Shown: positions 2,242 through 39,435 of the stretch, piece by piece | How the letters are laid out: every line of letters starts with the position of its first letter | How positions within the stretch are numbered: the stretch's first letter is position 1 | Source: Trypanosoma brucei | Lineage: Eukaryota | Assembly: GCA_000002445.1 (NCBI GenBank) | Contig: CP000067.1 | Coordinates: 1,248,001-1,312,000 of the forward strand | DNA: 64,000 bases | Reading direction: 5' to 3' | Notes under the pieces: generated by a model | The model's database searches: none | The model's input: only the letters and a program-made list of their open reading frames with translations | Told to the model about the DNA's origin: nothing | Made by a program: the position numbers and the translations under genes

Positions 2242-4719
2242 TTACTCTAATATTAAAGACGGCGCGCTGAGCATCTTCGCCATAGCGACGCGTCCCAGAG
2301 CATCTTCATCCCGGCTGTCATCATCCTCACGGTCAAAAGCCGCATCGTAATGCATGGCCGCCACGTAATACTTGTCTCGCTCTAAGTCCAGATCTTCCCC
2401 TCCATCCTCCTGAGCCTTGATATCCACCAACATTTTTTCCAGCCGGCGCTGCTGCCCAACAAAGCGGGGGGTGACACCGATGAAATACCGCATGCCATCA
2501 TGTTCGACACGACGAATTATATAGCGATCCACACGGAGTGGTGCGCCCGTTGTGGGGTCACGGACCCAGTGATCGTCCTCCTCAGCGGCATCGCGAGTCT
2601 TGAGTGAGATTATTTTTATCCATGAAAGAAGAACCTCTTCCACATTGGTTGCCCGATAGGCCACACCGTCCTGTTGCTGTTGTTGCTGACGCCTCTCGCC
2701 AGGAGCAACGGAGGGACCATCGCGATCAAAAGGAAAACACACCCAAAAAGCATTCGAAGGCGCCTCGCCTGGGTCTTGTAACAGCACATTACTCGGATGA
2801 TTGCTCGTATAGTTCACTGGAGGGCTTTTCTGCTCAGCAGGCGTCGCCGGCTCCAGGAGTGTGGATGTGCTGTTCAGGCTCTTCTTGGTGTGTGGAAAAG
2901 TCATTTCAAGCGACGTGCCGGAATTACTGCCGGGCGTCTTACATGGTGAACCCCTCCGCTGGCGATCGCCGATCTCCGCAGGAGTGCTGCATCGGAGAAC
3001 GTCACCCTGATAGAGCCCCATACTCGGCATGTCCTCGGCCACAATGAACACATCATTGGCGAGCTCTGGCTCCGGCATTGGCATACCACCGCGTAACAAA
3101 CCACGGTAATTCCACGGGCGTGGTATTGGCAAAAGACTGTTGTCAACCGTCTGCGTCAGCTGCTGCGCAAGCATAAGACACCCCCGTCGGGCGTACGCGG
3201 CACTCGCCCAAATGCACAGCCGACCATCTTCTACCCACATGCGGAAGCGGTTCCGTCGTGTTGCCAGAAGCGATGCAGCCCGAAACGCTTCACGTTGCGG
3301 GCACGAGTTGGGTGGTCCACCGCCCGCGGAGTCGGAGGCGCCATCAAGCACCCACGGCGGGACGCGCACATGTGACATACTCGTAACGGAGGGATGTGTT
3401 AGTGGCGTCGCCTGCACATTCACGCCTGACACGAGGAGTATAGGAATGGTGCCATCGGGATTGGTGTTGTGTGCAGGGCGGAGCTTCAGCGACTGCGCCT
3501 CCGACGGATCAAGGAAAAGTCGGTGCTGAGAGACGACACCGGGCACATCTTCTTCAAAAAGGTACAGTATATCTGCGTCACAACGGGAGGATGCCTCCAC
3601 CGCGTCGTGAACGCTATCAGTACTTGGAGATGAGCTTGCACTACTACCACTACTGTTCGCGCTACAGAAACTGCGGCGCTTCCCACCCGCGTTCAACAAA
3701 CTACGAAGTCGCACTCGCATCTCCCGCACAAACTGCAGCATCGGAATGTTTGATATGGGAGTTCGAAGAATCATGGGGATCATCGGAATGTACGGAGCCC
3801 GAATTTGAGCCTCAATGCACTGTCGAACGTACATGTGGACAGCAAGCATCACCACGTTTCCCAATATCTGATCACCGACATCCTTGTCAACGAACATTGT
3901 CGCCTTCAGCATATGCTGCTCTACTACTTCCCCGTGTACAGTGATGGATATGGTGGAGGGAAGGAGCCCAAACATACCGAGTACCTTAACCGTCGAGCCA
4001 AGAAACTCAACCCCGGCGTCCGGAGCAGACTTGTGTGCCTCCGAACGCGACACAATCGCACATGGAACTGGCCGAAGATAATAGGCACTCGGTGAAGTTA
4101 CGTGCGTACCGAACTCATTACAATGCGTGTGTTGCTCCCTTCCCTTTATGTATGCCAGAGCGTCGTTGTAGCCGTTGGCAAAAGCCCCTGGACCGAATCC
4201 AAAATACTCTTCATATGAGTCACCAAATGCAGCTCCATACTCCTGCGGATGAGGCGATTTGTACTGTTGTTGCCTTTGTTGGTGGCGCTGCTGCTGCTGG
4301 ATCTGCTTTTTGTACCTCTCTCGCAGCCCTTCATCTGTCTCAGACATGCAACACTCGGTCTCTCGCACGAGTCTTTGGTATAAACCTGATATGTCGTCTG
4401 TGAAAAGAGTCTCCACACGTTTATCTCTCGCGAGACTCCCTGGACTGTCTAAATCCGCGTTATTGGCGTGAACTGTCGTCTGGCAGTAGTAGTCAGATTC
4501 CCTGTCCGTATCTGCGGAGCGCACCGCCCGGTAGTAATATTTGGCTGTTCGGTGGTGTCTCGCCTGGAACAGACGCTCAAACAGAGGGCAGCTCTCACTC
4601 GGAAAAAATTCGGTTGTGAGGGGAACTAATATGACTTCACTCCGCCTATTGCGCCCATGGCGATGGCTGTACAACCCACGCCGTTGTGTCTCCCTGCTCG
4701 GAAGTGCTCCCATATTCAC
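2242..4719 (-). CDS. Uncharacterised large protein, member A of a 3-member paralog family with a conserved MG(A/V)xPSRE...(I/V)LVPLT(K/T)EFFPSxDCPLF N-terminus. Probable N-myristoylation. The real start is probably the third Met (4713), which gives MGALPSRE.
   Basis: 825-aa ORF. N-terminal ~250 aa align clearly with ORFs 11265..13973 and 16341..19592 (MGxxPSRE, VLVPLTxEFFPS, RPVPCAI, VxGxFGxxP blocks). MGxxxS fits the N-myristoyltransferase consensus. Confidence 0.75.
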   Translation of the reverse strand: MNMGALPSRETQRRGLYSHRHGRNRRSEVILVPLTTEFFPSESCPLFERLFQARHHRTAKYYYRAVRSADTDRESDYYCQTTVHANNADLDSPGSLARDKRVETLFTDDISGLYQRLVRETECCMSETDEGLRERYKKQIQQQQRHQQRQQQYKSPHPQEYGAAFGDSYEEYFGFGPGAFANGYNDALAYIKGREQHTHCNEFGTHVTSPSAYYLRPVPCAIVSRSEAHKSAPDAGVEFLGSTVKVLGMFGLLPSTISITVHGEVVEQHMLKATMFVDKDVGDQILGNVVMLAVHMYVRQCIEAQIRAPYIPMIPMILRTPISNIPMLQFVREMRVRLRSLLNAGGKRRSFCSANSSGSSASSSPSTDSVHDAVEASSRCDADILYLFEEDVPGVVSQHRLFLDPSEAQSLKLRPAHNTNPDGTIPILLVSGVNVQATPLTHPSVTSMSHVRVPPWVLDGASDSAGGGPPNSCPQREAFRAASLLATRRNRFRMWVEDGRLCIWASAAYARRGCLMLAQQLTQTVDNSLLPIPRPWNYRGLLRGGMPMPEPELANDVFIVAEDMPSMGLYQGDVLRCSTPAEIGDRQRRGSPCKTPGSNSGTSLEMTFPHTKKSLNSTSTLLEPATPAEQKSPPVNYTSNHPSNVLLQDPGEAPSNAFWVCFPFDRDGPSVAPGERRQQQQQQDGVAYRATNVEEVLLSWIKIISLKTRDAAEEDDHWVRDPTTGAPLRVDRYIIRRVEHDGMRYFIGVTPRFVGQQRRLEKMLVDIKAQEDGGEDLDLERDKYYVAAMHYDAAFDREDDDSRDEDALGRVAMAKMLSAPSLILE

Positions 4720-4768
4720 TTCAAACAGCCCACGTGATGATATGAGCCCAACAATTTATCCCCGTTCC

Positions 4769-4771
<3 letters not shown>

Positions 4772-4807
<36 letters not shown>
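4772..4807. repeat. (CT)n microsatellite
   Basis: ctctct run immediately upstream (sense 5'UTR side) of the gene at 2242..4719. Confidence 0.9.
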
Positions 4808-4809
<2 letters not shown>

Positions 4810-5039
4810 ACGTCTCGCCTCGATCGCGTACTCTCTCGTTGCCCAATTAAAACTCAAAAACCAAATCAATGACGATGATAATAGTGATAGCTGCGCCGAT
4901 GCGCAATTTCACTTCGTTTTCCCTCTCCCCACCCCTCCTCCTGCTCTCTGTTATTCTTTTCAAAAAAAAATCGGAGGACAACTCTTCGTCTCCCTTTTCC
5001 ACGTTTTGAGTGTCTCAAGCGGCACAAGAGTCGAACAGT

Positions 5040-5110
5040 CACGTTACCTCAACGTAAAGAGTAAAAAGATAACCAGGAAGAAAAGTCAAAAATAAATAAA
5101 AAGCTAAACG
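5040..5110 (-). promoter_or_regulatory. Candidate polypyrimidine tract / trans-splice acceptor region for gene 2242..4719
   Basis: The plus strand is purine-rich (aaagagtaaaaagataaccaggaagaaaag...), so the minus (sense) strand is polypyrimidine, ~320-390 nt upstream of the ATG. Kinetoplastid trans-splicing uses a polyY tract followed by AG. Confidence 0.4.
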
Positions 5111-5335
5111 AACTTCAAAAGGTGGGACCAGCAGAAGCGAAACTTAAAAATGCTGACTGCCCTTGGCCCCGTTTGCCCTTTATATGGAGGTTGATTTGAA
5201 GCCCTTAATCGTGAAATTTTAATTAGTTCTCTCGCACTCGCGCTCTCCTTTCCTCAATTTGAAGCTGGAGAAACCCCTTTCGCCACGTTCGACTGCCTAA
5301 CCGGAAGCAGTTGTTAAGATGTCGGGATGAAACAG

Positions 5336-5336
<1 letters not shown>

Positions 5337-5368
<32 letters not shown>
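5337..5368. repeat. (TA)n microsatellite
   Basis: Direct reading. Confidence 0.9.
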
Positions 5369-5372
<4 letters not shown>

Positions 5373-5750
5373 CCCTGTGGTGACAAGGGAACAACCAGCA
5401 GCGCAAACGCGGAAGGAGACGCTGAACTCTCCCTCTCCCTTATATTGCAAGTTCCTCCGTCAGTCCTGGTACTTGAAATTGTAGAAACAGATGCAATAAC
5501 AAAAAATGTTGTTTATACCGTTACTTACTTTTTCTTTTTATTGCTTTGGCCCAAATTAGACCTCTTAAGCTTAGATGCTTCTTGTCCTCTACCCCCCTCC
5601 TCACCTTCCTCCCCCGCTGCCAGAAAAGCAAAAATATGTCTCGCTTGTCCCCCTCAAATCCGGCTGTTCAAAGAAAGGTAACAACAAAACGTATTAAGAT
5701 ACAAATTATGGGCGTATGCTACGTGGGAACACGTCACTCCCCGAACTCTA

Positions 5751-5770
5751 CACACAAACAAACAAACAAA

Positions 5771-5805
<35 letters not shown>
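5751..5805. repeat. (CAAA)n followed by (CA)n microsatellite
   Basis: Direct reading: cacaaacaaacaaacaaacacacacac... Confidence 0.9.
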
Positions 5806-5808
<3 letters not shown>

Positions 5809-7044
5809 TTCTCTCTCTTTCTGCCTGTTTCTTTGAGTGGGTGAATGAGTGGCAAAGGGAATGCTTGGTTGGCTGGTTGTGGGGCCTGACCCAACCCCAC
5901 TCCGATGATAACTTGTCTGTTTGCTCGTTTTCCTTGCTTATCCACTCTCGGTTGTGGTTTTGTGTTATTATTTTTCCTTTAATCGTTTCTTGTAGATTAC
6001 GTCCAGTTCCTTCCCCGTGCACGCTAGTCTTCAGAAACTTTTTGTTCTGTTTTCAATTACTTTTGTTTGGTCCAGTGCCGCAGGACTTTGCCTGCTCCTC
6101 GTTCTATTGAGCGCAACGACCTCTTTCAGTTCAGAGGAGGTCTATTGTGGATAGGAGTGTGAAAAAAAAAAAGAGAGCAGAAATAGGGAAACGAGAAAGT
6201 CTTTCGGCAAAGGTATCAAATATAGCAACATGTTCAGACACACAGCGTCGAAGGTAAAGAAGGGCGTGCAGCAGCGGGTGATGACTAACCAGTCATCAAA
6301 ACAAACAGAAGCAAACGCGCTCCGAGGGACTTTAACCTCACTCTTACCCCATCGACAGTCCCGTTTCCCCCCCCCCCCTCGCAAAGTTAATTGCGTTCGG
6401 TTCGCTTGCCACACGCGCGATTTTACAGTTCATATTAACGGTAACGAAAGCGACACTTGGGATGACATCAACCACTATCTTTGTTTGCACCAGTGGTGAT
6501 TTCACTGACGTAACCACACGATTAAATTCGACAGTCCCGCAGAGTCATTTTCTTTTGTCTCATTTCCACTCATGCATCCTTCATAAGCACTGCTTCATGA
6601 CCTTCATCCGCTAATGTCACCGCACAAAGAGCAGATGCATCTTGTTAAATGATCAGCGAACCGAACACAGCGGGCTGGGCCCGAGCATCAGAGTGGTAAT
6701 ACACCCGATAGGGTCAAACAATAGCGTAAACAGGGGAAGTTGTTGATGACATTAGCAGCATGCTATATCATTACCCTCATGAGAAATAAAAGAATTGGAC
6801 ACACTTCACCGGTTTGCCATAGCCCTGAACGCGCACATAAATTCACAAATAAATATGCAGTGTACAAATAGAGGGTGAAGGATAACACAGCAGTGAGGGA
6901 GCAAGAAACTGACTGAGAAACTCAAAACACGGTGTCGCGTGCACTCACCTTCTCAACAGCTCCTAACCCATGCACTACTACAAAATGACAGAAGGACCCT
7001 CCACCCTTTGGTTTCTCCACTGCAAAGTTACTTTGTTTGTCCAA

Positions 7045-10000
7045 TCAGTTATTGCACTTATCCAGCTCCTCCCGCAGACATGGTGGGCACCACTGCAATT
7101 GCTGCAGGTCCTGACGCAAAGCTTGACACTCGAAGGCAGTTAGCGGTCGTTGGCGCAAATATAGCCTGGCAATCCCCTCGACCAGGTTCTGCAAAATTCC
7201 TTTTTTAATTGCATTGCTACCGTGCGCAGGCCCACCTGGGCCGTAAAACTCTACCGAATGAAGTACCTCTGTAAAGTTTCCCAGGTCCCACTGCGCCGTA
7301 GCTGATACCTGTGTATTGTCACAAAGAAGGCTCCCCGACGCCGCCCACTGGTTTAATAATTTGTTATCGTAGCCATGGGCACTGGAAACAGCGGGGTTGC
7401 TACGAGCCGCAGTGGAGTTACTACCCGAATGGTGAGGAATAGGAGCTTCGGTTACTTCAAAATCACTCGATGATGTGAGGCAGTAAGTGCTCCCCTCGAG
7501 TAGAGTATTTGAAAGGAGTCGAGCAATGGAGACAGCAGCGGTCGGCTCACAGGCTGTGCACGTTATTGCAAGTGCTACAAACAGGCAGTATTCCATCGAG
7601 ACCTCCTCATGCAGTGGAATGGTCGAGGCGAGCGCTTTGAGTACGTCTGACGCCGAGGTCGCAATGAGTCGGCCCGCCCGCGGTAGCACACCTGTACAGA
7701 GTTCATGCAGCAACCGTTTAACTTCTTCATCGGTGCGTACGTCGGCTTCCTCCCACTTATCAAATGAGTGACATGATGAAATCGCCCACCTTAGTGTGTG
7801 GCACAGAATGAGGTCCCACTGCAAAACATCCTTCATGCGCTGGTGCATACCGAGCGTTCGGTGTACCCACCCACACCATACGCCTTTTTCTCTCAGATCC
7901 TCATCGTAGAGGGGAAAGAGGAACCAGGGCCATCTGGTCTGTGCGACTGCTCTGCGCAGACTCTCCGCTAAGGTCACAGTTGGCTCGACAAATGGATCAA
8001 TAACAGCAGCCTCGTCAGCGATGGTGACATCTTGGAGTCCAAGAATTGCATCTATTAATCCTGGGGCAACATCCTGACCGTGCTTGGTGAGGAAAATACT
8101 ATGCAGGAGGAAGGTCTCAGCAATGTGCAGTTTCTGTGTACAGGCTCGGCTACTACTGTTCTGGGCGCAACTGTCACGTTGCTGTTGTTGACTTACCGTG
8201 GAGCCGCCACCAACAGCAGAGGTGCCGTGCACGCCTCGTCGCATAAGTTGGACAACTTCAACCATTGTACACAACTCGTCTGGGAGCAAGCGCCCCATCA
8301 CGTCCTTCAGGCCCAGGCACTTCTCCTCGAAACTAGTAGCTAGAGCTGTTGCGTAACCCACGGGCACCTCCCACTCGGTCATGTGCACGAGACCAGTAAA
8401 GGCGGCGGCAAGTCGGACGCGAGCGTGCGTTAGTGATGCCCAACATGCCCCAACAAGCTCAATTTTGTTAAGGCATATCTTACCATCCTCGCCACCACCG
8501 ACGGTGGTCTTCACGTTTCTGGTGTTCAGCAAGTCTAACGGAAGCGGTGTGTGCCTCTTGCTGCTTAAACGGAGAAAGGCATGTTGAAGACCCTTCGACG
8601 TCAGGACGTTTGCCGCCATGAACTCTTTGAGACGAGATTGCGTCTCATGTTCCGTTCCAAGAAGGAAAAGCAGGTCATCCGACCCCGCATACAACGTAAA
8701 ATACGTTGCGAGGTAGTGCATGGACGACAGCGCGGCCAGTAGGGACACAAGATGGCCCGTTTCCTCACCATTTGCAGCACCAGTCTCGGCTACTGTGATG
8801 TGCGCTTGAATGGTGCGCACTGCGGCACGCGCCAATTCGGCCGCAAAAACCTCCATCGTGGGGAAGACACGCCCCACCCCATCCCCTTCGGAGCTCGACG
8901 CGAGAAGCAGCCACATTTCTGCCGGTATTCCTGAGCCCAGAACCGTGGCAGAAAGCAGACCCTCAGCCGTGTCGTTGAACAGTCCCACAAATCCCTGCCG
9001 CACAGCGGCCCTAACCACGAGAAACGCAGCAAGGCATCCCACAACATCGTGCGGCGATCGGGCCTGCTCCACAGGTATACTGCAAACAAACCTGATGAAG
9101 AGCATCAGCGTCTCGTGCAGTGCCGGCAGCAGTGTAGCGCAGGTCTGTTGTAACCGCAAAACATGCCGAAGAACAAGCAACTCCTCCACCACGCCTGAAA
9201 CCGTTTCGCTTCCCAAGAGCACAGACCTTAGTCGCTCCCTCACAAAACGAACAAAACGTGGATCACTCGCCACACGAATAGCCACATTGGGAAGAAGCAG
9301 CACCCCACTGCCTAAGAGCAGACGAGAAGCCAGTGTACAAGGTATCAAATTTAGTGAGTCTAGCACCGCCTTCGTCATTCCTAATCTTTCCAGGGCGTTA
9401 CCCTTGTCTTCCCCGCTTCGCATACATTCCGAAAGCTCTGCAAAAGTCATGTCATTACACTCGTTTGTTGAGATTTCTGCTAAGTCTGTCGGTGGGCAGC
9501 CGATTTCTCCTATGGCCTCCTCCACCTCCATCGTTGGATCGAAAAGAAGCAGCACAAGGCACTCGGCAGCGACCCGGCAGGGCAAAGCGTGGCCAGCAGA
9601 AGCAAGCTCATTGATTATCAGGTGGAGTAATTGTGCACATTCTGTGCCTGTGGTAAAAAGTTCTCGAAGTGGCCTGTCCACTAAAAGGCGGGCACGAAGA
9701 GCCTCCATTGCGCACTCACGGTGCTTCCGAACTGTACTGCGAAGGAACTGCAGAAGCAATTCCACGTATAGCTCCCCACTTGGCACTTCGGGATGGCTCA
9801 CACACGTCCCAGCAGGGGCCGCATTGCACGTATTAAGTGGCACGGTATAATACCCGCATTCAAGATTCTCAAAATCCTTTGGATCCCATTGGCGTTGACG
9901 TGACATGCAATCAATGGCACCAAAACCTCTATCTGCGGAAATGGAAGCCGCTTCGATGTTACCGCTTAACCCGGGTTGCACGTGGGCGGTAAACCCACTA

Positions 10001-10290
10001 GTAGTAATAGAGGAAAACGTTGCCGATTTGGTAGTTTTCATAGGCATCCGGCCGTCGTTGGGATCACCCTCACACTGCATTTCCGTGGCGTTATTTCCAT
10101 AAAATCGATTGGGGTCAATGTGCGGGAATGCCCTCCCAACAACAGCTTGAATGGGACGCAGAATCGAACGCCCCTTTTCAATATTCCCGTTGCCTGATGA
10201 GGAGTTTTTAGAAGTTCCCCCTTCAACAATACCCGTCCGCTCAACTACATCTCCGTATAGGACGATACCGCTTGGCTCCTCAACCATCAC
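7045..10290 (-). CDS. Large conserved hypothetical protein (1081 aa). No family recognised.
   Basis: Uninterrupted 3.2-kb ORF on the same strand as all neighbours, with a coding-like composition. Antisense ORFs (e.g. 8810..9850 +) are Ser/Arg-rich artefacts. Confidence 0.7.
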   Translation of the reverse strand: MMVEEPSGIVLYGDVVERTGIVEGGTSKNSSSGNGNIEKGRSILRPIQAVVGRAFPHIDPNRFYGNNATEMQCEGDPNDGRMPMKTTKSATFSSITTSGFTAHVQPGLSGNIEAASISADRGFGAIDCMSRQRQWDPKDFENLECGYYTVPLNTCNAAPAGTCVSHPEVPSGELYVELLLQFLRSTVRKHRECAMEALRARLLVDRPLRELFTTGTECAQLLHLIINELASAGHALPCRVAAECLVLLLFDPTMEVEEAIGEIGCPPTDLAEISTNECNDMTFAELSECMRSGEDKGNALERLGMTKAVLDSLNLIPCTLASRLLLGSGVLLLPNVAIRVASDPRFVRFVRERLRSVLLGSETVSGVVEELLVLRHVLRLQQTCATLLPALHETLMLFIRFVCSIPVEQARSPHDVVGCLAAFLVVRAAVRQGFVGLFNDTAEGLLSATVLGSGIPAEMWLLLASSSEGDGVGRVFPTMEVFAAELARAAVRTIQAHITVAETGAANGEETGHLVSLLAALSSMHYLATYFTLYAGSDDLLFLLGTEHETQSRLKEFMAANVLTSKGLQHAFLRLSSKRHTPLPLDLLNTRNVKTTVGGGEDGKICLNKIELVGACWASLTHARVRLAAAFTGLVHMTEWEVPVGYATALATSFEEKCLGLKDVMGRLLPDELCTMVEVVQLMRRGVHGTSAVGGGSTVSQQQQRDSCAQNSSSRACTQKLHIAETFLLHSIFLTKHGQDVAPGLIDAILGLQDVTIADEAAVIDPFVEPTVTLAESLRRAVAQTRWPWFLFPLYDEDLREKGVWCGWVHRTLGMHQRMKDVLQWDLILCHTLRWAISSCHSFDKWEEADVRTDEEVKRLLHELCTGVLPRAGRLIATSASDVLKALASTIPLHEEVSMEYCLFVALAITCTACEPTAAVSIARLLSNTLLEGSTYCLTSSSDFEVTEAPIPHHSGSNSTAARSNPAVSSAHGYDNKLLNQWAASGSLLCDNTQVSATAQWDLGNFTEVLHSVEFYGPGGPAHGSNAIKKGILQNLVEGIARLYLRQRPLTAFECQALRQDLQQLQWCPPCLREELDKCNN

Positions 10291-11264: not shown

Positions 11265-13973
11265 TTAGGACTTCCTCCAGTCCCAAATAAAGGCTGTTTC
11301 ATCTATGAACCGCTTAGCAAACGTCCTAGGCCCTGTTGCAGCATTGTTAGGCACCTGTCGTGTCTCGTTTACTTCCGCCTCCGGCCCCACCTTCACAAAT
11401 GTCGATGGTCGCCGTGCCGGCTGCGCTGACAAGCCCGCCGACGGTGGGAACGCTGTTTGAGAGGTTATAGATGTAGTAGCGACGGCAGACCGATCCGGCA
11501 GTGGTTGAAATTGCGGTGCTGTGTGAAAGAGGACCCCCATCAATTGAGCTGCGGCTTGCACTGCCCCATAGCGTACGCGGGTGGGCAAATACGACATGTA
11601 GCTCCTTTCACTGCCCTCACCGCAGCCAGCGAAAAAGGAAAAGAGTGCTGATATGGTGGATACTGACTCTTTGTTGGTGCTATTTTCTACCTTTACCTTT
11701 TCCGCCACGGGTTTTTGCTCCTTTTCCTTCTCTCCAGTAGCGGGATGCGCAGGGACAGTTGATGCAGCAGGACTTACTGCCCCAGCTGCAGGTGCGGCCA
11801 AATTCTGTGCCAACTTCTTTTTGTTGGGATTCGCAAAATCTGGCACCGTTCCGTGGTAATACACCTTGCCATTCAGCTCAAAACGATAGATGTAGAAGTT
11901 GCCTTCACGAACGTGGACCCGTTTTTTCTTCCTCTCCACAGTCCCATCGCAGACCTTTCGCCGCATAGTTGCATCGGCATCCACACCCTCTTCCCCCGCC
12001 GTCTCAGCGTGATCCTGGGCTTCGACCTCCTTCTCGTCTTCCTCTTCCACTTCAGTCGTTACCCATCCAATGTCATCGGGTGGAGCTGTGCGCGCCGCCT
12101 TGCAAAACGGCCGCATTGCCGCAAGGACAACAGCATCAAGTGGAATATTCCGGTCGGCCACCCACGAACGGCTCGTCCGGTCATATCTCAGCACGTCACC
12201 CTCGTCAAAGCCATCGATTACTGCCGCGCCCATGACATACACATTAACTGGGTCCACTGATACATCGTCACCTTCACATAGTTGAGTGGGTGGCTGGTTC
12301 TTACGATCGACAAGGCCACAGAAACGCCAGTAATTTCGATCGTCGGGTAGCGGTTCAGCTCGACTTGATGTAACGTCTGGCCGCTCGGCCATGCTCAAAC
12401 AAAGCCGCTCCGCTAATTCCTTCCCAATACGGCCGTGGAACATGCTATCATCTGTTAACCACATCTCAAGATTTTCGTGTGATACCCCCATATTCGCAGA
12501 CTCCGGGGGCGCGCCCGCCTTCAATCCGGATGTGGACGCGGATGAAAAGTTCAACGAGTCTGTTCGTGAGTGAGGTGCGCTATTCTGGCGGGACAGAAGT
12601 CCAAATTGCTCCCATCGGCAACGCATTTCATACACAAATGAAATAATGGGCACATTTGTCATCAGTGACGAGAAACTAAACGTTTCCAGTGGCGGAAGGT
12701 GACATTTTTCAACCTCTGATGACGCCAAAGCGTTTTTGCCACGCCGTTTCAACACTCCTGCCTCCACAAGTTGATTGTAATAAGTGCTTGCAGCTACAAA
12801 TGTCACACGACCGAGGTTTTGTTCCCCCGCTGATTTTGTTAGGAAAACAATGGCTGCCAGCGGTGCGGCCACAGGAGGTGGCAGTGAGAAAAAGCGATTG
12901 AAGTTCTCCTCCGGCGCTACACTACGATGACGCATAGCCCGGCCCCTTTCCCGTGGCAAAGCTTCTGGCTGCAATGCGGTCCACTGCCTTGCGTACGGAT
13001 CATAAGTTGGTGTCGTGCAGAGAGACGATACTCTTGACGAGGTGCCGTTACGTGACACGGGTGTCCGTTGGTTTGGCTGCATATATACTGTGGGAAACGA
13101 GGTGGGGTTATCATGAAATGTTAGACCGCTGATCATCGAACAGTGTTGCAGTGACGACACCGAAAGGTATTGATTGTCCAGTGAGGAAGAGCAACTAGTT
13201 GCTCCACGCACCCCGGCTAATGAATGAGGTCCTCTGGGTAAACCTGTCAGAGCGCTGCCGCTACCGCTTCTCGCGATTCCGGGACATACTGGAGTGTGAG
13301 GCGCTGACGTTAGCGACTGCATGCCCTCGACTTCCATGGGCACAAAGCCAAAGCAACCAACAATGTTGACAATTGATCCGCCAACACGCACACCGTTTGC
13401 CATCAACGTTTGGAGGTGTGGTGCCCTACCGCCCCCCGTCGTTGCTTGATTCTGTTGCAACTGCCCTAATTTCTCGGGGTCGTAGCGAAATGCTACTGCG
13501 CACATGATCGGAAGAACTCTCTTCTCTTTCACGTCTGCTGTTTTGTCTCTCTCACCAGAGAGTGATGAGGGCCCGCCTGAACGTTCGTCCCGTAAAGACC
13601 GCTCGTGCGCCAGTCGCATTTCCTCATCCGTGTCGAACAGCATCTCCTCCGTCCGCTCCACCACTCCAGAATATAGTACTTCTCGCGATGGGTACGAGGT
13701 TTTTCCATCGCTGCTACTTGCGTTTGGAATGCGGCTCAAATCCCCTGGGTTCCCTGGGTGGCGGAAGTAATAGTTTACACCCGCATCACATCGTGTTTTG
13801 TGGAACTGCACGAACAGTGGGCAGTCGGCAGAGGGAAAAAACTCTTTGGTGAGCGGAACTAGCACTATGTCCAACTTCTTGTGACCCCCGGAGCTGTTGC
13901 CATTACCACTTGTAGGGGGTGGCACAATGTACAGCCCGCGTTTTAATGTTTCTCGACTGGGTGCAACACCCAT
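11265..13973 (-). CDS. Uncharacterised large protein, member B of the MGxxPSRE paralog family (probable N-myristoylated)
   Basis: 902-aa ORF. N-terminus is MGVAPSRETLKRGLY...IVLVPLTKEFFPSADCPLF, paralogous to 2242..4719 and 16341..19592. Confidence 0.75.
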   Translation of the reverse strand: MGVAPSRETLKRGLYIVPPPTSGNGNSSGGHKKLDIVLVPLTKEFFPSADCPLFVQFHKTRCDAGVNYYFRHPGNPGDLSRIPNASSSDGKTSYPSREVLYSGVVERTEEMLFDTDEEMRLAHERSLRDERSGGPSSLSGERDKTADVKEKRVLPIMCAVAFRYDPEKLGQLQQNQATTGGGRAPHLQTLMANGVRVGGSIVNIVGCFGFVPMEVEGMQSLTSAPHTPVCPGIARSGSGSALTGLPRGPHSLAGVRGATSCSSSLDNQYLSVSSLQHCSMISGLTFHDNPTSFPTVYMQPNQRTPVSRNGTSSRVSSLCTTPTYDPYARQWTALQPEALPRERGRAMRHRSVAPEENFNRFFSLPPPVAAPLAAIVFLTKSAGEQNLGRVTFVAASTYYNQLVEAGVLKRRGKNALASSEVEKCHLPPLETFSFSSLMTNVPIISFVYEMRCRWEQFGLLSRQNSAPHSRTDSLNFSSASTSGLKAGAPPESANMGVSHENLEMWLTDDSMFHGRIGKELAERLCLSMAERPDVTSSRAEPLPDDRNYWRFCGLVDRKNQPPTQLCEGDDVSVDPVNVYVMGAAVIDGFDEGDVLRYDRTSRSWVADRNIPLDAVVLAAMRPFCKAARTAPPDDIGWVTTEVEEEDEKEVEAQDHAETAGEEGVDADATMRRKVCDGTVERKKKRVHVREGNFYIYRFELNGKVYYHGTVPDFANPNKKKLAQNLAAPAAGAVSPAASTVPAHPATGEKEKEQKPVAEKVKVENSTNKESVSTISALFSFFAGCGEGSERSYMSYLPTRVRYGAVQAAAQLMGVLFHTAPQFQPLPDRSAVATTSITSQTAFPPSAGLSAQPARRPSTFVKVGPEAEVNETRQVPNNAATGPRTFAKRFIDETAFIWDWRKS

Positions 13974-16340
13974 TATACAGACACAATTTTGTATCCGAAG
14001 TTATCTGTTTTTCTTTACCTCTGCTTGAAATATCGTCTTCTTTTTCTGACTATTTATGAATATATTTACAAACGGTTCCCTTTGGCTCGTGTCCTTTTTT
14101 CTCCCCGTTTACTTTTAACTAACTTCTCTATTTACGCTTACTAAACAGTTGCAACTAACGGACCACCACGCGATGGTATAAGCGTTTGGTGAGGTTCGTA
14201 TGCCTACAATGCTGCAACGTGAGACTCTTGTTCCCTAACAGAAATGTTTGTTTTTTTCGTATCGCTTATACTTTCCCAACCCCTTTTCCTACTCTTCTTC
14301 ACGCCTTTACTTTACTGGTGTTTGCAAAATGCCCCTACTACTCGGTAATATCTTATTATTTTCTTTTTTTTTTGTTTGTGCGTGTGTGTCCTTTCCTCTT
14401 GAAGGTTATAATAAGCACCCTCTTCCTCTCTTCCCCCCCTTTCCTACTTTTTGAAAGTAAAAAATATTAATAACGAATTCACCCCCTCGCTTTTGGTTTT
14501 TCCCTTCTCCCTCCCCTTCTGCTTTCTTCCCCCCCCTTTAGCTACTTTTCACCAAACAGTTGGGTGCCACCAAAAGATTTCTTTTGTAACTTTATTTTCA
14601 CAAGGGAGCGAAAACAAAAACAAAAACAAAAACTTCCTCCAATCGTTCTACTTGTTTCGCTTCCGTTGATTACGAAAGGAGTACACAGCTGCAGATAAAA
14701 GTGATGAATATAGAAATAATAGTAATAGTAATAGTTCCTGTTATTTGATGACGAACCTTCCCTTCTTTCTTGCAGTGCCAGTAATGATTTGTGACTATGT
14801 TGAGATGATGACAGAAGTAATGTGCACGTCTCACAGTGTTTCGTTGTGTGTCTTCCTGCTGTTTTTCCCCTTCTCCTACTTTGTTTTGTTTTGTTTAAAT
14901 GATTCCCTCTTGAGGTCTAATATAACTCAACTACTTTCTTGTGCCGTTTCCTCGAGGTTCCGCTCTAACAGCGGAAAACGCTTCGAAAAGTTCTCCCTTT
15001 TATTTTTAATTTAACAAAAAGAAAAAAGATGAAAAAGAAACAAAGGGAAGACTGCGTACGCGTTTCCCTAAATGAGTTGCGATGCTAAGCTAAAGAATTG
15101 GATAGCAAGTGATAAAATGAAAGGGAAGAAAGGGGTAATATGAAGAAGTAAAATAAAATGAAGGAAAGCCAGGTGAGGGATTAGAATGCGAGGCGATCAA
15201 AGGAAACACGAAAAACAGTCACATAGAGAAGTGAAATGAAGCAAAAAGATACTGAAAAGGGCGATGCCCAAATCACCAAAAAAGAAAACGAAGGAAAACA
15301 AACAAAAGGCGTCGAAGTGAGGAAGCATACAAAACGTAGAAAAGATATTAGCAATAATTGAAAAAGAAGAAAGGAGAGTTAGAGCAACAACAAAATGAAA
15401 TCTTTCAGTACATTACCTACAAAGAAAATCGGAAAATAAAAAAGAGACTAATAAGGGGAGTGGACAAACGAACAACAGCAAAAAGAAGCAAACATAACGT
15501 GTCCACCGGCAAGTAGCCCTTATTAAAGCGTACATCAGTGTGAGTTGAAAAACGACATACAACAGCAAATATGCCCGTACCGCACATGTCATCCGTACGA
15601 CCGGGAGGTAGTTAAAACAATAAATCCCAACATTTCATTTTCTTCTTTGCTAGCGGGGGTAGGGAAGGTGTTAAATCTGAAGGAAAAAAGCATGAAACAT
15701 GAGAAAACAGTTAAAAAGGGGTTATTGCTTTTTTTTTTTTCGGCTGCGTATGGGTTCAATGTACTTCATTTCTCGCTTTGCAAAGCTCAATAAAACATTA
15801 CGGTTATCGAACACAAACGCGGTCCCGAAACCCCTCCACTCCAACGCCCCTTTCAGATGCCACAAAATGTGTGTTTCTGTGGGGAAATTAAATTTTAAAA
15901 ACATTTAACAACAAATTTAAGGAGACACTTAAAAATAGGAAAAGAAAGAACTGGAAGAAGATTCCTTTGCTGAGCATTCACATAACATCCATTTTATCTC
16001 CCTCCCCCCTCATTGTTTTCGGATCCTTATGTTTGTCAACCGTTCGGGTGACTATGCACTCTCTTCACGTGTTTTTTTTAAAAAAATTAAGAGCTGGGGA
16101 TGCTCCCTAACATTCTGTTATAGTATAAATTCTGTATGGCTACTGCTGCACGTAGTTGTGCATCGTGAGAGTTCCTATGTCGTATTTCCCATCCGCATCA
16201 AGCGACAAATACTCGCTTTCATTCTGCTTTCATCCCGACAATGTTACTGTGTATTTACTTTTCTCTTTCCTGAGCCTCAATCTATTTACATTCGCGTCGG
16301 GTTTCCGGTGTCATTATTTCTTCAGAACACTTCACTGTTG

Positions 16341-19300
16341 TCAGTGCTGTAAACCGTGCCGCACCCAAACATTAAGGGACGGAGTCATCACCCCTGACCG
16401 ATCCGAGTAAACGTCTTTACCGCTTTCCAAGTTCGTGGGAACACTGTGGACACGGTTACGCACACATGCCGTGGTATCGTCGGAGTCGCTGATACCCCCA
16501 AAGGAACTGCGGAACCCAGGTAAATAATGGACTTTCTCGCGGGCACCGGAACGGGGGTTCGTGGGATTTAACCATTTATCCGCACTTTGGGGAAAGGGGC
16601 TGCACTGATTGCCCACAATTGACGAGCCTCGCGTTGTACTCGACCGCTCACCCGATGCAGCGTAAGACCAGGGAACCCCAGTATCATCCCAATGGGGAGT
16701 GCTGAAGGAAGGTATGGAAACACGATGGCTGTCCCTATTACTGCTTCCACGGCGCGAATCCTTGGGATCGTCGCAGAATACAAACTCACATGGGTCCACC
16801 GTGGGGCTGCGACTGCTCGTGAAGGGAGCGGGGGGGTGCCTCACCCTGTGGTTCAAAACGGAAGCAGGAGGGCGGTTGGTACCGACAACAGGTTGGTTGA
16901 AGCACGGAAAGTCGTGCTGGGGCTCGTGGGTCAAAACGAGTGGCTCTGCATAATGTGCGGGTGCGGGGCTTCCGTATGTGCGAAGCCGTTGCTGAGGCAA
17001 TACGTAGCCAAACCCTACCGAGGGAAAGTTTGGAGTGGGCATCGGGGGTACCGCACCTTCTTTACAAACTCCATAGTTGACCAATGGGAAGGGGGTGCCC
17101 TGTTCTGCGGTTTTCACTGGTCCCATTACAGTGGTCATCGGTGCCAGAAACCCTGTCGTTGTTGCTTTTGCAGTTACCGTTCTTTTGGCTTTGGATTGTT
17201 GCGGCACCATCGGAGGACCGAGGTGACGCGTGGGGGCGGGTGTGGTCAACTTCGTAGAACTTTCAACACCCTTTGTGAGAACACGCTGTCGTCGGGCTAC
17301 CTTCCTGCGCGACCGCTTTTTCCGTGGTGGGCGGAGGAAGTACGGTGTGACTGCTACAACCCTCACCGCCCCCGTAACGAGTGAGAGACGCCACAGGCAA
17401 AGTGTACCCTCACCAACAAGTTGGGCCACGGCGTCAGCCAACTCTGGCGACCCTTCCGCGTTACCCTCAGTGATATCAGGGGGTAACAACAGGGGTGTTG
17501 GTCGTGATTGCTCACTTCCGGAATCACGGTAACGTATCCAGTTCTCCGCGTCGACATGTGCTTCCCGCGCCAGCTTGCAGCTATTGTGCAACTCGGAGAG
17601 CAGAAGCTCTTCCAGCGGGAACTTGAGACGCTCAATAACCCATGACTGGGATTCGCTTGATTGGCATGGGTCTACCATAAGGTGGATTAACTCCCCAATT
17701 GACACCTGTTCATCATCATCATCTTTGTTGCCGCCGCTTCCTTTTCGTCCACTCTCGACTGACGAACAACATGTTCTCCCGATAACTACCGATCTCCCGT
17801 TAGCCTTCCATGACGAAAGGGCGACGGTGGCGGTCCTCTGTGCCTCCTTTGAGTGGCCAACCACCCAGTACAAATGTAACTGCTGGTCCTTGGTGCTGTC
17901 TTCGCTGTCAGCAAAGTCGACCAAGTCAATACCACCCTCGGGCCACGCCTCCACAACTACGGCGCCACCTGGCCTGTCATTCAGCTTTCGATGTGGCTTC
18001 AGTGCGGCTGCAGCGGCAGCAACAGCGGTACTGTTCCCGTTCTGACTGCTTTCGGTGCCCCTTGAGGGAATACTCGCTAAAATACTCACAGGCGCTTCAT
18101 TAAGCGTGTTGTGCGTGCGAGCATCAATGGCCGGAGGCAGTGACCCCACTGTTTCGGTCACACTGACGGTGGTGCGAGTTCGAGCAGTCGACGCATCACG
18201 GTCGCTAATTTCTTGCATTTCAAAGTACTTCGGCCGTACAATGTCGGTGATGCAGTCTGGGCAATCCATACGTCTTGCGATGCATCCAACAGCGCGTGTT
18301 GCAGCATCTTGTGAAATACGTGTGAACAGCACATCATTGTCCAACCACATGTGAAGATCATCCCCCATCCCGAAATTTGTTTTTGGGCCAAAAACCGTGG
18401 CACATTCTTCTGGGGTTTCATTATCTTCTCTTGGAGCATTCAGCGGTTCCTCGGTCCCCACCTTGTTAAGCCAAGACACGTGGTCGCTTCGGTTGCCGCA
18501 CTTACTACAAAAGGAGCCGTTAGGATCGGTTGCCTTGTCGGCTTCTGCAACAGCAAACAGTCTCGAGAGGGTCGCTCGCAGGACTCGCTGAAAGCACAGC
18601 ATTGGAACATTAGCCCGTCTGCTGGCAATGACAACGGATCCTACAGGAGGGAGCAGCAGATCACGGTTACTGTCAATGTCCGGGGAGTCAGTAAGCCCAC
18701 CATCCCTCATTTTATCCCGTCGTTGCTTTGCCAATCGTGCTTCATCTTTAACACTCATCACCCCAGCCAGAGCTTCACGCCACTGTGCGACGTATGTGTA
18801 AATAGCCGATATGAATGCGTGTACGAAGTTGTGATCCCCAACTGATTTGTTGAGGAACACCTGCAGCTGAAACGGACCTTCACCCAAGTTATCATCACAG
18901 CTACGTGGGAGGATACCGTTCACATCGCCAACGAAACCGACAACCCGTAGCCGCAAACCGCAAACGACGACGCTCTCTTCCAGAACACTTTTGCCCTCAG
19001 CCGCGCCACCCACGCCATCATCTTCACCTTCCCCTTCAGCAGCGTCCTTCATAAATTCGGCGTCGTCATCACAACCATGCATGTACAATCCGCCCTTCTC
19101 CGGAGGCCGTCCGACGTTATCGGACCCGGGCAATGAACCAGCGGGGCCACAAACAAATGCTATGGCGCATGGCACGGGACGAAGTGCCTCCGGGTCTTGC
19201 GCATTCAAGTCGAACATTTGCTTATCCGTATCAAATATCAATGACTTCCGCGCTCGTGTTACGTATGCGTCATAAAACTCCTCAGGGGTACAGTTGAGTG

Positions 19301-19592
19301 GCACAAATTCTTCAGCGTGCCACACACTGTTTCCATCGCCGCTGGTGGTGGCGGAAGCACTCCGTACCTTATCGCCGGACGGCTGAACCCGCGTGAAGGA
19401 CTCATCAAATGTGTGATAATAATGAACAAACGGATCCTTGCGGGCTTCGAATAGCTGGCGCAGAGGCAAGCAGTCGGGCGAAGGAAAAAACTCCTTGGTA
19501 AGGGGAATCAATACCATTTTGTGCTTTTGCCCATAATCTGGCAGCCGGCACAGCCCCCGTGACAAGGACTCCCGACTGGGAACCGCTCCCAT
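16341..19592 (-). CDS. Uncharacterised large protein, member C of the MGxxPSRE paralog family (probable N-myristoylated)
   Basis: 1083-aa ORF. N-terminus is MGAVPSRESLSRGLC...MVLIPLTKEFFPSPDC. Shares internal blocks with the other two members. Confidence 0.75.
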   Translation of the reverse strand: MGAVPSRESLSRGLCRLPDYGQKHKMVLIPLTKEFFPSPDCLPLRQLFEARKDPFVHYYHTFDESFTRVQPSGDKVRSASATTSGDGNSVWHAEEFVPLNCTPEEFYDAYVTRARKSLIFDTDKQMFDLNAQDPEALRPVPCAIAFVCGPAGSLPGSDNVGRPPEKGGLYMHGCDDDAEFMKDAAEGEGEDDGVGGAAEGKSVLEESVVVCGLRLRVVGFVGDVNGILPRSCDDNLGEGPFQLQVFLNKSVGDHNFVHAFISAIYTYVAQWREALAGVMSVKDEARLAKQRRDKMRDGGLTDSPDIDSNRDLLLPPVGSVVIASRRANVPMLCFQRVLRATLSRLFAVAEADKATDPNGSFCSKCGNRSDHVSWLNKVGTEEPLNAPREDNETPEECATVFGPKTNFGMGDDLHMWLDNDVLFTRISQDAATRAVGCIARRMDCPDCITDIVRPKYFEMQEISDRDASTARTRTTVSVTETVGSLPPAIDARTHNTLNEAPVSILASIPSRGTESSQNGNSTAVAAAAAALKPHRKLNDRPGGAVVVEAWPEGGIDLVDFADSEDSTKDQQLHLYWVVGHSKEAQRTATVALSSWKANGRSVVIGRTCCSSVESGRKGSGGNKDDDDEQVSIGELIHLMVDPCQSSESQSWVIERLKFPLEELLLSELHNSCKLAREAHVDAENWIRYRDSGSEQSRPTPLLLPPDITEGNAEGSPELADAVAQLVGEGTLCLWRLSLVTGAVRVVAVTPYFLRPPRKKRSRRKVARRQRVLTKGVESSTKLTTPAPTRHLGPPMVPQQSKAKRTVTAKATTTGFLAPMTTVMGPVKTAEQGTPFPLVNYGVCKEGAVPPMPTPNFPSVGFGYVLPQQRLRTYGSPAPAHYAEPLVLTHEPQHDFPCFNQPVVGTNRPPASVLNHRVRHPPAPFTSSRSPTVDPCEFVFCDDPKDSRRGSSNRDSHRVSIPSFSTPHWDDTGVPWSYAASGERSSTTRGSSIVGNQCSPFPQSADKWLNPTNPRSGAREKVHYLPGFRSSFGGISDSDDTTACVRNRVHSVPTNLESGKDVYSDRSGVMTPSLNVWVRHGLQH

Positions 19593-32908: not shown

Positions 32909-33293
32909 TGTGTTACTAACAGCCACAATAACACTAAGAAACGAGTGCTTGATGCTTGCCGAAACCAAGAAGTAGCACCAGCCACAAGGTTAGAAAAGAT
33001 GTGAGCACAAACGAGAATCGGCCGGTATGTCCGGTTGCACAGGATACAAAAAAGAAAAACAGCAAGACACCTCCATGCGCAAGATGCTGCGACAACATAA
33101 CACCCAAAGACGTACGCCTAGATTGGCAAGTGCACAACCAGCAGCGCATTACGTATCGGTTCTCTCTGATCATACGCATATATGTATGTAGAGTTCAGAA
33201 AGAGAGGAAATGATTACCTACTTGGACTTCCTGTGAGCCAAACACCTAAATAAAGATGGTGGACATCCCGCAGAAACTGAAAATGAGGGTTCC

Positions 33294-33309
33294 AAAAAAA
33301 AAAAAAAAA
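33294..33309 (-). promoter_or_regulatory. T16 polypyrimidine tract on the sense (minus) strand. Candidate trans-splicing signal for the first gene (32363..32908) downstream of the ORF-free region.
   Basis: A16 on the plus strand equals T16 on the coding strand, ~390 nt upstream of the ATG at 32908. Confidence 0.45.
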
Positions 33310-39116: not shown

Positions 39117-39136
39117 CAGCCACGACGTCGTGGCTG
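39117..39136. repeat. Perfect 20-bp palindrome cagccacgacgtcgtggctg
   Basis: Read directly. The two halves are exact reverse complements (centre gacgtc). It lies 165 bp downstream of the tRNA-like gene. Confidence 0.9.
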
Positions 39137-39284: not shown

Positions 39285-39301
39285 CCAGAAGAAAAGAAAG
39301 A

Positions 39302-39433: not shown

Positions 39434-39435
39434 TA

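What the first reader, a model, noticed from the sequence alone, without database searches (positions are those of the whole stretch)
2242..19592. Three interleaved paralogs of a large, uncharacterised, probably N-myristoylated protein family
ORFs 2242..4719, 11265..13973 and 16341..19592 (825-1083 aa) share a strictly conserved N-terminus MG(A/V)xPSRE(S/T)LxRGL...(I/V)LVPLT(K/T)EFFPSxDCPLF, plus downstream blocks (RPVPCAIA/LPIMCAVAF, VVGFVGDV/IVGCFGFVP/VLGMFGLLP). Their C-terminal halves diverge. Gly2 with Ser6 fits the NMT consensus, pointing to membrane-associated proteins. Three copies within 17 kb, separated by one unrelated large gene, suggests local duplication with subfunctionalisation. 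I could not assign the family. A longin/uDENN-like N-terminal fold is a speculative possibility.
Basis: seen in the sequence. Interest (0 to 1): 0.6.

Follow-up and report, generated by a model that had tools for sequence, protein, structure and literature searches.

The report
Myristoylated PuREBP1-family paralogues with GNAT-like fold
Three neighbouring Trypanosoma brucei genes are ancient relatives of each other: one is the known purine-responsive RNA-binding repressor PuREBP1, and all three share a lipid-modified N-terminus and a predicted acetyltransferase-like fold, which suggests testable ways these regulators could sense nutrients.

The parts
2242..4713 (-). ORF A: Tb927.4.4550 = PuREBP1 (823 aa plus stop). 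The true start is the ATG at 4713, not the GTG at 4719.
   Evidence: Translation. 100% identity to AAZ11045/XP_844604, named 'Purine-responsive element-binding protein 1' in UniRef. The gene ID is given in PMC8053114.
4690..4713 (-). N-terminal MGALPSRE of ORF A: N-myristoylation site (Gly2, Ser6) plus the family-wide PSRE motif
   Evidence: Of 92 family representatives that start MG, 85 have MGxxPS and 63 have MGxxPSRE. The L. donovani orthologue peptide G(+534.33)ALPSHETHER was detected with a YnMyr tag. N-terminal TAP tagging abolishes PuREBP2 and NT8 mRNA binding.
3679..4713 (-). ORF A residues 1 to about 345: predicted GNAT-like alpha/beta domain with disordered inserts (77-104, 153-211)
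2407..3300 (-). ORF A residues about 472-769: conserved C-terminal alpha/beta region, fold unassigned, ending in the basic motif RYIIRRVEHDGMRYFIGVTPRFVGQQRR
   Evidence: Conserved blocks. Secondary structure. No Pfam, PDB or Foldseek match.
11265..13973 (-). ORF B: Tb927.4.4570 (902 aa plus stop), paralogue of PuREBP1
   Evidence: Translation. Cluster member AAZ11047 on the 1,590,432-bp TREU927 contig. The Gateway primer ATGGGTGTTGCACCCAG in Erben 2014 Table S6 matches MGVAPS. It is a tethering activator and bound RNA on a protein array.
12426..13973 (-). ORF B residues 1 to about 516: GNAT-like domain. Predicted elements: beta1 35-40, alpha1 52-61, alpha2 97-131, beta2 158-164, beta3 200-212, disordered insert 215-368, beta4 372-378, alpha3 384-404, beta5 432-437, alpha4 441-456, beta6/7 502-516.
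11799..12422 (-). ORF B residues about 518-725: conserved C-terminal domain (invariant W604; motif GNFYIYRFELNGKVYYHGTVPDFANPNKKK)
16341..19592 (-). ORF C: Tb927.4.4580 (1083 aa plus stop), third paralogue. The conserved core is residues 1 to about 765 (nt 17298-19592), followed by a divergent tail of about 320 aa.
   Evidence: Translation. 100% identity to AAZ11048/XP_844607. Family HMM E 9e-177. Blocks.

Best explanation
The three ORFs are Tb927.4.4550 (PuREBP1), Tb927.4.4570 and Tb927.4.4580. They are three ancient paralogues of a kinetoplastid-restricted protein family.

Shared architecture of the three:
- an N-terminal glycine that is myristoylated, within an almost invariant MGxxPSRE peptide;
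- a highly diverged GNAT-like (acyl-CoA N-acyltransferase-like) alpha/beta domain, interrupted by long disordered inserts;
- a second conserved alpha/beta region that ends in a basic motif.

What is shown:
- paralogy;
- the identity of ORF A as PuREBP1;
- published RNA-binding and repressor function for A;
- published tethering-activator and in-vitro RNA-binding data for B;
- lipidation of orthologues.

What is inferred:
- The family as a whole acts in post-transcriptional control of mRNAs.
- The lipidated N-terminal peptide is an integral, docked part of the GNAT-like domain, or a partner-binding element, and not a permanent membrane anchor. This would explain why N-terminal tagging inactivates PuREBP1.
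- The GNAT-like cleft is a non-catalytic ligand- or RNA-binding site. It sits where GNATs hold the adenine-nucleotide part of CoA. It could couple metabolite levels such as purines to RNA binding.
- The paralogues differ in targets and in sign of regulation: A represses, B activates when tethered.
For: Paralogy and extent: BLASTP E 3e-11 to 7e-15. Blocks are conserved across about 760 residues. The family HMM matches all three ORFs end-to-end and nothing else in the window.

Identity: exact matches to T. brucei chromosome 4 proteins, with UniRef naming ORF A PuREBP1. Gene IDs come from PMC8053114 and PMC2212663.

Function of A: it binds the PuRE stem-loop with PuREBP2, represses NT8 and AATP6, and is essential. 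The N-terminally TAP-tagged form loses PuREBP2 and NT8 mRNA.

Function of B: Erben 2014 Table S3 lists it among the best up-regulators, with 25 locations at >=3x and a mean of 16.5. On the protein array it was positive on 3 of 3 total-RNA slides and 2 of 3 poly(A)+ slides.

Myristoylation:
- The YnMyr-modified peptide G(+534.33)ALPSHETHER comes from LDBPK_311430, the orthologue of A. A modified peptide was also found for the neighbouring family member LDBPK_311550.
- LdBPK_311540 (orthologue of C) and LdBPK_200770 sit in the block above the 'Lower confidence' heading in Table S5.
- T. cruzi K4E6H0 (orthologue of B) was enriched with azidomyristate. Enrichment fell with DDD85646 (H/L -1.56, Significance B 2.2e-8, 24 peptides).
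- All 92 MG-starting representatives have G2, and 89 of them have S6.

Ligand-site inference: the family-invariant residues G383, Q401, N440 and P442 fall at the beta4-alpha3 loop and the beta5-alpha4 junction. From established knowledge of the superfamily, these are the CoA-contacting elements of GNATs.

Docked N-terminus: residues 1-20 are predicted ordered, at pLDDT 80-90.

Age: each paralogue has separate Trypanosoma, Leishmania, Phytomonas or Angomonas orthologues. B and C are adjacent in T. vivax, Porcisia and L. donovani.
Against: - The canonical GNAT motif A (Q/R-x-x-G-x-G/A) is not kept. The family has K-x-x-G-[DE]-Q-x-L-G, and C lacks the last Gly.
- No lipidation data for the T. brucei proteins themselves could be read, because the T. 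brucei N-myristoylome paper is not held.
- The L. donovani B orthologue gave only weak, non-significant values.
- There is no functional data at all for ORF C.
- The protein-array RNA binding used an N-terminally His-tagged, unlipidated product. The authors warn of electrostatic artefacts.
- A represses and B activates, so 'same mechanism' is an extrapolation.
- I could not inspect model coordinates, so docking of the N-terminus is inferred from pLDDT alone.
Confidence: 0.68

Rival explanations
1. The GNAT-like domains are catalytically active acyltransferases. For example, they might acetylate proteins, RNA or small molecules, and RNA binding would be secondary to enzyme function.
Against: No GNAT Pfam model is matched, even at E<=10. 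Motif A is degenerate and is not conserved in paralogue C. Reported PuREBP1 phenotypes are highly transcript-specific repression through a stem-loop, with no hint of enzyme activity. Huge disordered inserts split the domain.
Confidence: 0.12
2. The GNAT resemblance is a generic alpha/beta sandwich artefact of structure prediction. On this reading the family has a novel fold, the N-terminus is simply a lipid anchor, and the proteins act as membrane-proximal scaffolds.
For: There is no sequence-level support for GNAT. Foldseek finds nothing significant. Mean pLDDT is only 58-63 because about 40% of each protein is disordered. About half of the other PuREBP1/2-bound mRNAs encode putative membrane proteins.
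Against: Two models from different alignments independently return only GNATs among their top 60 hits, with near-complete coverage of the targets. The core segments have pLDDT 80-96. The predicted element order beta1-alpha1-alpha2-beta2-beta3-beta4-alpha3-beta5-alpha4-beta6/7 is the GNAT order. PuREBP1 is reported as apparently cytosolic.
Confidence: 0.17
3. One reading: the conserved N-terminal region is a longin/uDENN-like domain of membrane-trafficking regulators.
For: An alpha/beta N-terminal domain combined with an N-terminal lipid is compatible in outline with small trafficking modules.
Confidence: 0.02

Closest known systems
PuREBP1 (Tb927.4.4550), purine-responsive element-binding protein 1 of T. 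brucei (Rico-Jimenez et al., NAR 2021, PMC8053114)
   Same: ORF A is this protein (100% identity). ORFs B and C share its whole core architecture.
   Different: The paper reports no recognisable motifs, no similarity outside trypanosomatids and nothing about paralogues of PuREBP1, and it never uses the word 'myristoyl'. The family relationship, the lipidated N-terminus and the GNAT-like fold are additions from this analysis. B behaves as an activator when tethered, whereas PuREBP1 represses.
GNAT (GCN5-related N-acetyltransferase) superfamily, e.g. PseH 4ri1, RimJ/RimL, NAT9, Naa50
   Different: Identity is only 5-13%. There is no profile-level match. Motif A is degenerate. Inserts of 100-150 disordered residues lie inside the domain. 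The N-terminus is lipidated. The characterised member is known for RNA-binding regulation, not catalysis.
N-myristoylated proteins with a sequestered or functional lipid (myristoyl-switch type: recoverin, Arf, c-Abl; general knowledge)
   Same: Gly2/Ser6 NMT motif with experimental lipidation of orthologues. There is a single acyl group and no nearby Cys in A, B or C. The known member appears cytosolic. The N-terminal 20 residues are predicted ordered.
   Different: No evidence yet shows a lipid pocket or switching. Conservation of P5, R7 and E8 goes far beyond NMT requirements, and such conservation is not a feature of classical switches.
GNAT-fold proteins that recognise RNA stems (aminoacyl-tRNA transferases ATE1, FemX, L/F-transferase; general knowledge)
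   Different: No sequence relationship exists. No tandem-GNAT arrangement was shown here; hhalign of the N-terminal against the C-terminal domain was negative. Which part of PuREBP1 touches RNA is unknown.

Membership tests
PuREBP1 family (kinetoplastid MGxxPSRE proteins) | Significant full-length sequence similarity to PuREBP1 (Tb927.4.4550) | tested here: met
   A is identical to it. A-B E 7e-15 and A-C E 3e-11. The family HMM hits all three ORFs at E<=9e-177.
PuREBP1 family (kinetoplastid MGxxPSRE proteins) | Sequence-specific mRNA binding and post-transcriptional regulation | not testable with these tools
   Published for A. For B there is tethering-activator and protein-array RNA-binding data. 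Nothing is available for C.
N-myristoylated proteins (NMT substrates) | Gly at position 2 after the initiator Met, small or uncharged residue 3, Ser/Thr at position 6 | tested here: met
   MGALPS, MGVAPS and MGAVPS. All 92 MG-starting family representatives have G2 and 89 of them have S6.
N-myristoylated proteins (NMT substrates) | Experimental NMT-dependent lipidation of the N-terminal glycine | tested here: inconclusive
   Shown for orthologues only. A YnMyr-modified peptide was found for LDBPK_311430, the A orthologue. T. cruzi K4E6H0, the B orthologue, was inhibitor-sensitive. LdBPK_311540, the C orthologue, is listed above the 'Lower confidence' heading. The T. brucei dataset (Wright 2016) is not held.
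GNAT superfamily | beta1-alpha1-alpha2-beta2-beta3-beta4-alpha3-beta5-alpha4-beta6 mixed sheet fold | tested here: met
GNAT superfamily | Motif A pyrophosphate-binding signature Q/R-x-x-G-x-G/A at beta4-alpha3 | tested here: not met
   The family has K-x-x-G-[DE]-Q-x-L-G (A: KDVGDQILG; B: KSAGEQNLG). C has KSVGDHNFV. Only one Gly (G383 in B numbering) is invariant.
GNAT superfamily | Detectable sequence or profile homology to GNAT families | tested here: not met
   There are no Pfam hits on full or insert-trimmed sequences. No GNAT appears in a profile search of PDB sequences. hhalign against a RimI-based profile gave E 0.76. Foldseek's best GNAT hit was E 2.6.
GNAT superfamily | Acyl-CoA binding and acyl transfer | not testable with these tools
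   Needs biochemistry.
Longin / uDENN domains | Longin-type alpha-beta-alpha sandwich (beta-beta-alpha-beta-beta-beta-alpha-alpha) detectable by fold or profile search | tested here: not met
dsRBD (double-stranded RNA-binding motif) | Pfam dsrm match in the C-terminal beta-beta-beta-alpha basic motif | tested here: not met
   Only ORF B gives a sub-threshold hit (E 0.095-0.14). Just 1 of 24 family members matched.

The most novel reading that the evidence does not exclude
The MGxxPSRE proteins may be a kinetoplastid-specific class of nutrient-sensing RNA regulators. In this reading a degenerate GNAT pocket binds a metabolite (purine nucleotide or nucleoside, CoA or acyl-CoA) or the protein's own myristate, and this binding allosterically gates mRNA binding. 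Each paralogue (A, B, C and the other subfamilies) would then couple a different metabolic cue to a small mRNA regulon, which would answer the open question of how PuREBP1 senses purines.
Probability: 0.15. Interest if true: 0.85.

Novelty: new variant of a known kind. Interest (0 to 1): 0.55.

Why it matters
Trypanosomatids control genes almost entirely after transcription. PuREBP1 was reported as the first trans-acting factor there that links a nutrient cue to a specific mRNA element, and how it senses purines is stated to be unknown.

Three points make that question testable:
- PuREBP1 is one member of a lineage-restricted family of at least ten subfamilies.
- Its orthologue carries a myristate on Gly2.
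- Its conserved core is predicted to adopt a fold whose usual job is to hold an adenine-nucleotide cofactor.

These points suggest concrete experiments: G2A mutants, NMT inhibitors, and ligand screens on the GNAT-like domain. They also nominate Tb927.4.4570, Tb927.4.4580 and the other paralogues as candidate regulators for other cues. NMT is a validated drug target in these parasites, and an essential myristoylated RNA regulator would be a relevant downstream substrate.

Tried and rejected
- Pfam on the full proteins and on insert-trimmed N- and C-terminal cores gave nothing significant.
- phmmer and profile searches against PDB sequences gave nothing. The best hit was a glutathione-synthetase-like effector at E 1.4 (full profile) and 0.26 (C-terminal profile) on the C-terminal GxxxiyRfexdGxxyxGxtPrF motif. 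I judged this chance.
- A weak dsrm hit (E about 0.1) on ORF B's C-terminal basic motif looked attractive for a stem-loop binder. Only 1 of 24 family members shows it, so I rejected it.
- I tested for internal duplication, meaning a C-terminal domain that is a second GNAT. hhalign of the N- against the C-domain profile was negative, with probability below 1%.
- hhalign of the N-domain profile against a small GNAT alignment was negative. That alignment was built from RimI and four PDB relatives taken.
- Foldseek of model B against PDB gave no hit below E 2.5, so the C-terminal fold stays unassigned.
- The bioRxiv ZNK1 paper only cites PuREBP1 and is unrelated.
- The T. brucei N-myristoylome (Wright 2016) and the mRNA-bound proteome (Lueong 2016) could not be read.
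- The intervening ORF 7045..10290 is not a diverged family member.
- Low complexity or chance as the cause of the similarity is rejected by the E-values and by multi-block colinearity.
Full report

The window carries long ORFs only on the minus strand, as expected for a trypanosome polycistron. ORF A (2242..4719) is listed from an upstream GTG. The conserved MGALPSRE starts at the ATG at 4713, which gives 823 aa. That protein is identical to T. brucei TREU927 AAZ11045. ORFs B (11265..13973, 902 aa) and C (16341..19592, 1083 aa) start at ATG.

Pairwise BLASTP gives A-B 7e-15 with a second colinear segment at 4e-8, B-C 1e-14 plus 2e-8, and A-C 3e-11. None of the matching segments is low-complexity.

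I aligned the three ORFs with 53 orthologues using MAFFT E-INS-i. Shared blocks run along the whole core. In ORF A coordinates they are 1-63, 107-136, 209-256, 263-339, 486-522, 563-577, 688-718 and 722-764. An HMM of the family matches each ORF end-to-end (E 4e-243, 5e-225, 9e-177) and nothing else in the six-frame translation of the window. So the paralogy is confirmed, and the intervening 1081-aa gene (7045..10290) is unrelated. The statement that the C-terminal halves diverge is true only of the tails and the disordered inserts.

2. What the genes are

All three proteins are exact or near-exact matches to T. brucei, T. b. gambiense and T. equiperdum chromosome 4 proteins. UniRef names ORF A 'Purine-responsive element-binding protein 1'.

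The source paper (PMC8053114) identifies PuREBP1 as Tb927.4.4550. It reports the following:
- It is an essential protein of apparently cytosolic location.
- Together with PuREBP2 it binds the 35-nt PuRE stem-loop of NT8 mRNA.
- It represses NT8 and AATP6, and only a handful of mRNAs associate with the complex.
- The authors found no conserved motif and no similarity outside trypanosomatids.
- They ask how purines are sensed.
- They note that an N-terminally TAP-tagged PuREBP1 binds neither PuREBP2 nor NT8 mRNA.

Jackson (2007) pairs Tb927.4.4550, 4.4570 and 4.4580 with Tb927.8.7780, 8.7760 and 8.7750 on the chromosome 4/8 duplicon. The chromosome 8 copy of A is 74% identical to it. ORFs B and C are therefore Tb927.4.4570 and Tb927.4.4580.

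ORF B has published functional data in Erben et al. 2014 (PMC4055773):
- It is in the table of best up-regulators in the genome-wide tethering screen, with 25 locations enriched at least 3-fold and a mean of 16.5. Tb927.8.7760 is there too, with 13 locations and a mean of 32.1.
- On the protein microarray, ORF B scored positive on 3 of 3 total-RNA slides and 2 of 3 poly(A)+ slides.

I found nothing on ORF C beyond one expression list.

3. N-myristoylation

The motif fits NMT rules: G2, small residues at positions 3 and 4, S6 and R7.

There is published chemical-proteomic evidence on orthologues.

In L. donovani (Wright 2015, PMC4372256):
- Table S6 lists the YnMyr-modified peptide G(+534.33)ALPSHETHER from LDBPK_311430, the PuREBP1 orthologue. 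The annotation says it decreased or was absent with NMT inhibitor and was of low abundance.
- Table S6 also lists G(+534.33)TAPSAEIVPDAPFR from LDBPK_311550, a further family member next to the C orthologue.
- In Table S5, LdBPK_311540 (C orthologue) and LdBPK_200770 (another member) appear in the block that precedes the heading 'Lower confidence N-myristoylation assigned'. LdBPK_311430 appears after that heading.
- LdBPK_311530 (B orthologue) has weak values.

In T. cruzi (PMC4974623):
- K4E6H0, the B orthologue, was enriched with azidomyristate (log2 6.4).
- Its enrichment fell with DDD85646 (H/L -1.56, Significance B 2.2e-8, 24 unique peptides).

The T. brucei dataset is not in the library. 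For the window's own proteins, lipidation is therefore inferred from orthology and from the invariant motif.

4. Size and age of the family

I searched 1.84 billion representative proteins with a profile of 48 family members. Only 116 had E<=1e-3. Every hit that carries a name is from a kinetoplastid: Trypanosoma, Leishmania, Leptomonas, Porcisia, Phytomonas or Angomonas. The rest are unnamed metagenome or read-assembly proteins.

Of the 116, 92 start with MG. The other 24 are fragments or have mis-called starts. Among the 92:
- 85 read MGxxPS and 63 read MGxxPSRE;
- P5 occurs in 87, S6 in 89, R7 in 72 and E8 in 81.

By N-terminal signature there are at least ten subfamilies.

Each of A, B and C has its own orthologues in Leishmaniinae and Trypanosoma. 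Identity is 38-60% within a subfamily and 21-26% between subfamilies. The duplications therefore predate the trypanosomatid radiation.

The clustering is conserved:
- L. donovani has 311430 (A), then 311530 (B), 311540 (C) and 311550 (a fourth member).
- T. vivax has 356500 (C), 356600 (B) and 356700 (another member).
- T. theileri has C, B, an 1141-aa gene, an aldehyde dehydrogenase, then another member.
- T. cruzi has TCSYLVIO_002913 and 002914 adjacent.

In this window the gene beyond C is a protein kinase.

5. Fold

I built AlphaFold2 models from two different alignments:
- ORF A with its 21 orthologues: pTM 0.62.
- ORF B with the 48-sequence family alignment: pTM 0.66, 193 residues at pLDDT>=90, and all five models within 60-63 mean pLDDT.

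About 40% of each protein is predicted disordered.

The predicted element order in B is the GNAT order: beta1 35-40, alpha1, alpha2, beta2 158-164, beta3 200-212, a 150-residue disordered insert, beta4 372-378, alpha3 384-404, beta5 432-437, alpha4 441-456, beta6/7 502-516.

The family-invariant residues G383, Q401, N440 and P442, and the near-invariant K380, F377 and Y398, lie at the beta4-alpha3 loop and the beta5-alpha4 junction. From general knowledge of GNAT structures, these are where GNATs contact the pyrophosphate and pantetheine of CoA.

The caveats are serious:
- No sequence method links the family to GNATs.
- Motif A is degenerate.
- Foldseek finds nothing significant.

I therefore call the domain GNAT-like in fold and do not file the family as GNAT members.

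The C-terminal conserved region (B residues about 518-725) has alpha/beta structure and ends in a basic motif. Its fold is unassigned. Weak echoes of dsRBD and of a glutathione-synthetase-like protein did not hold up. It is not a detectable duplicate of the N-domain.

6. How it most likely works

Shown:
- A binds a specific RNA stem-loop and represses.
- B activates when tethered and binds RNA in vitro.
- Orthologues are N-myristoylated.
- Blocking the N-terminus of A destroys partner and RNA binding.

Inferred:
- The family consists of post-transcriptional regulators built on a non-catalytic GNAT-like scaffold.
- Conservation of P5, R7 and E8 goes beyond what NMT needs, and AF2 predicts residues 1-20 to be ordered (pLDDT 80-90). 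This suggests the lipidated peptide docks onto the domain or a partner and does not serve as a permanent membrane anchor. That would fit the apparent cytosolic location and the tagging result.
- The GNAT cleft normally holds an adenine-nucleotide cofactor. It is a plausible site for the allosteric purine binding that the PuREBP1 authors proposed as one possibility.

These last two points are hypotheses, with perhaps 15% probability for the full sensor model.

7. Novelty and verdict

One gene is already known and a second has screen data. Three things are absent from the PuREBP1 paper: that PuREBP1 belongs to a sizeable kinetoplastid-only family, that its orthologue is demonstrably myristoylated, and that the core is GNAT-like. 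I found no paper in the library that states them, although the raw lipidation data sit in published supplements.

I rate this a new variant of a known kind: a lipidated, insert-rich, probably non-catalytic GNAT-like domain in RNA regulators. Interest is moderate (0.55), chiefly because it turns the question of how purines are sensed into specific experiments.

Noticed in passing
window 39302-39374 and 39442-39518, minus strand: Two tRNA genes, tRNA-Leu(CAA) and tRNA-Val(CAC). Rfam scores 40.3 and 60.9 bits, confirmed by ARAGORN.
   Followed up: partly
window 32968-41622: An 8.6-kb stretch has no ORF of 200 aa or more on either strand. It contains the two tRNAs. GC skew changes sign at about 38-42 kb, although flanking genes on both sides are on the minus strand. 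It may be a Pol III/Pol II boundary or a decayed element inside the polycistron.
   Followed up: no
window 4714-4719: The mechanical ORF call for gene A starts at a GTG two codons upstream of the real ATG, which is at 4713.
   Followed up: yes
L001:10001-13786 (T. theileri), plus T. vivax ERJ75_000356700 and L. donovani LdBPK_311550: Other species carry a fourth family member in the same gene cluster, with N-termini MGLAPSR(R/S)LLY... or MGTAPSAEIV...APFR. In this window the gene beyond C is instead a protein kinase (24178-25860). This suggests differential loss or relocation, possibly to the chromosome 8 duplicon.
   Followed up: partly
window 11268-11279 (C-terminus of ORF B): The B subfamily has a nearly invariant extreme C-terminal W-D-W-R motif (W897 D898 W899 R900). 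It lies after about 170 poorly conserved residues. Its function is unknown.
   Followed up: no
window 52969-54390, minus strand: An Aa_trans-family amino-acid transporter gene (Pfam 3.5e-57) lies about 50 kb from PuREBP1. PuREBP1 is reported to repress the amino-acid transporter AATP6 mRNAs. I did not establish whether this copy is a target or the non-target AATP11.
   Followed up: no
window 24178-63562: Other neighbours identified by Pfam are: protein kinase (24178-25860), L51_S25_CI-B8 domain protein (26621-27403), TP_methylase (31421-32230), zf-MYND protein (41622-43160), PPR protein (50313-51908) and cullin (58888-61749). All are on the minus strand.
   Followed up: no
ORF B residues about 683-725 (window about 11799-11927): The conserved motif GNFYIYRFELNGKVYYHGTVPDFANPNKKK gives sub-threshold matches to dsrm (E 0.1) and to a nematode glutathione-synthetase-like effector, 5oet_B (E 0.26). 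Neither generalises across the family, so both are probably chance.
   Followed up: yes
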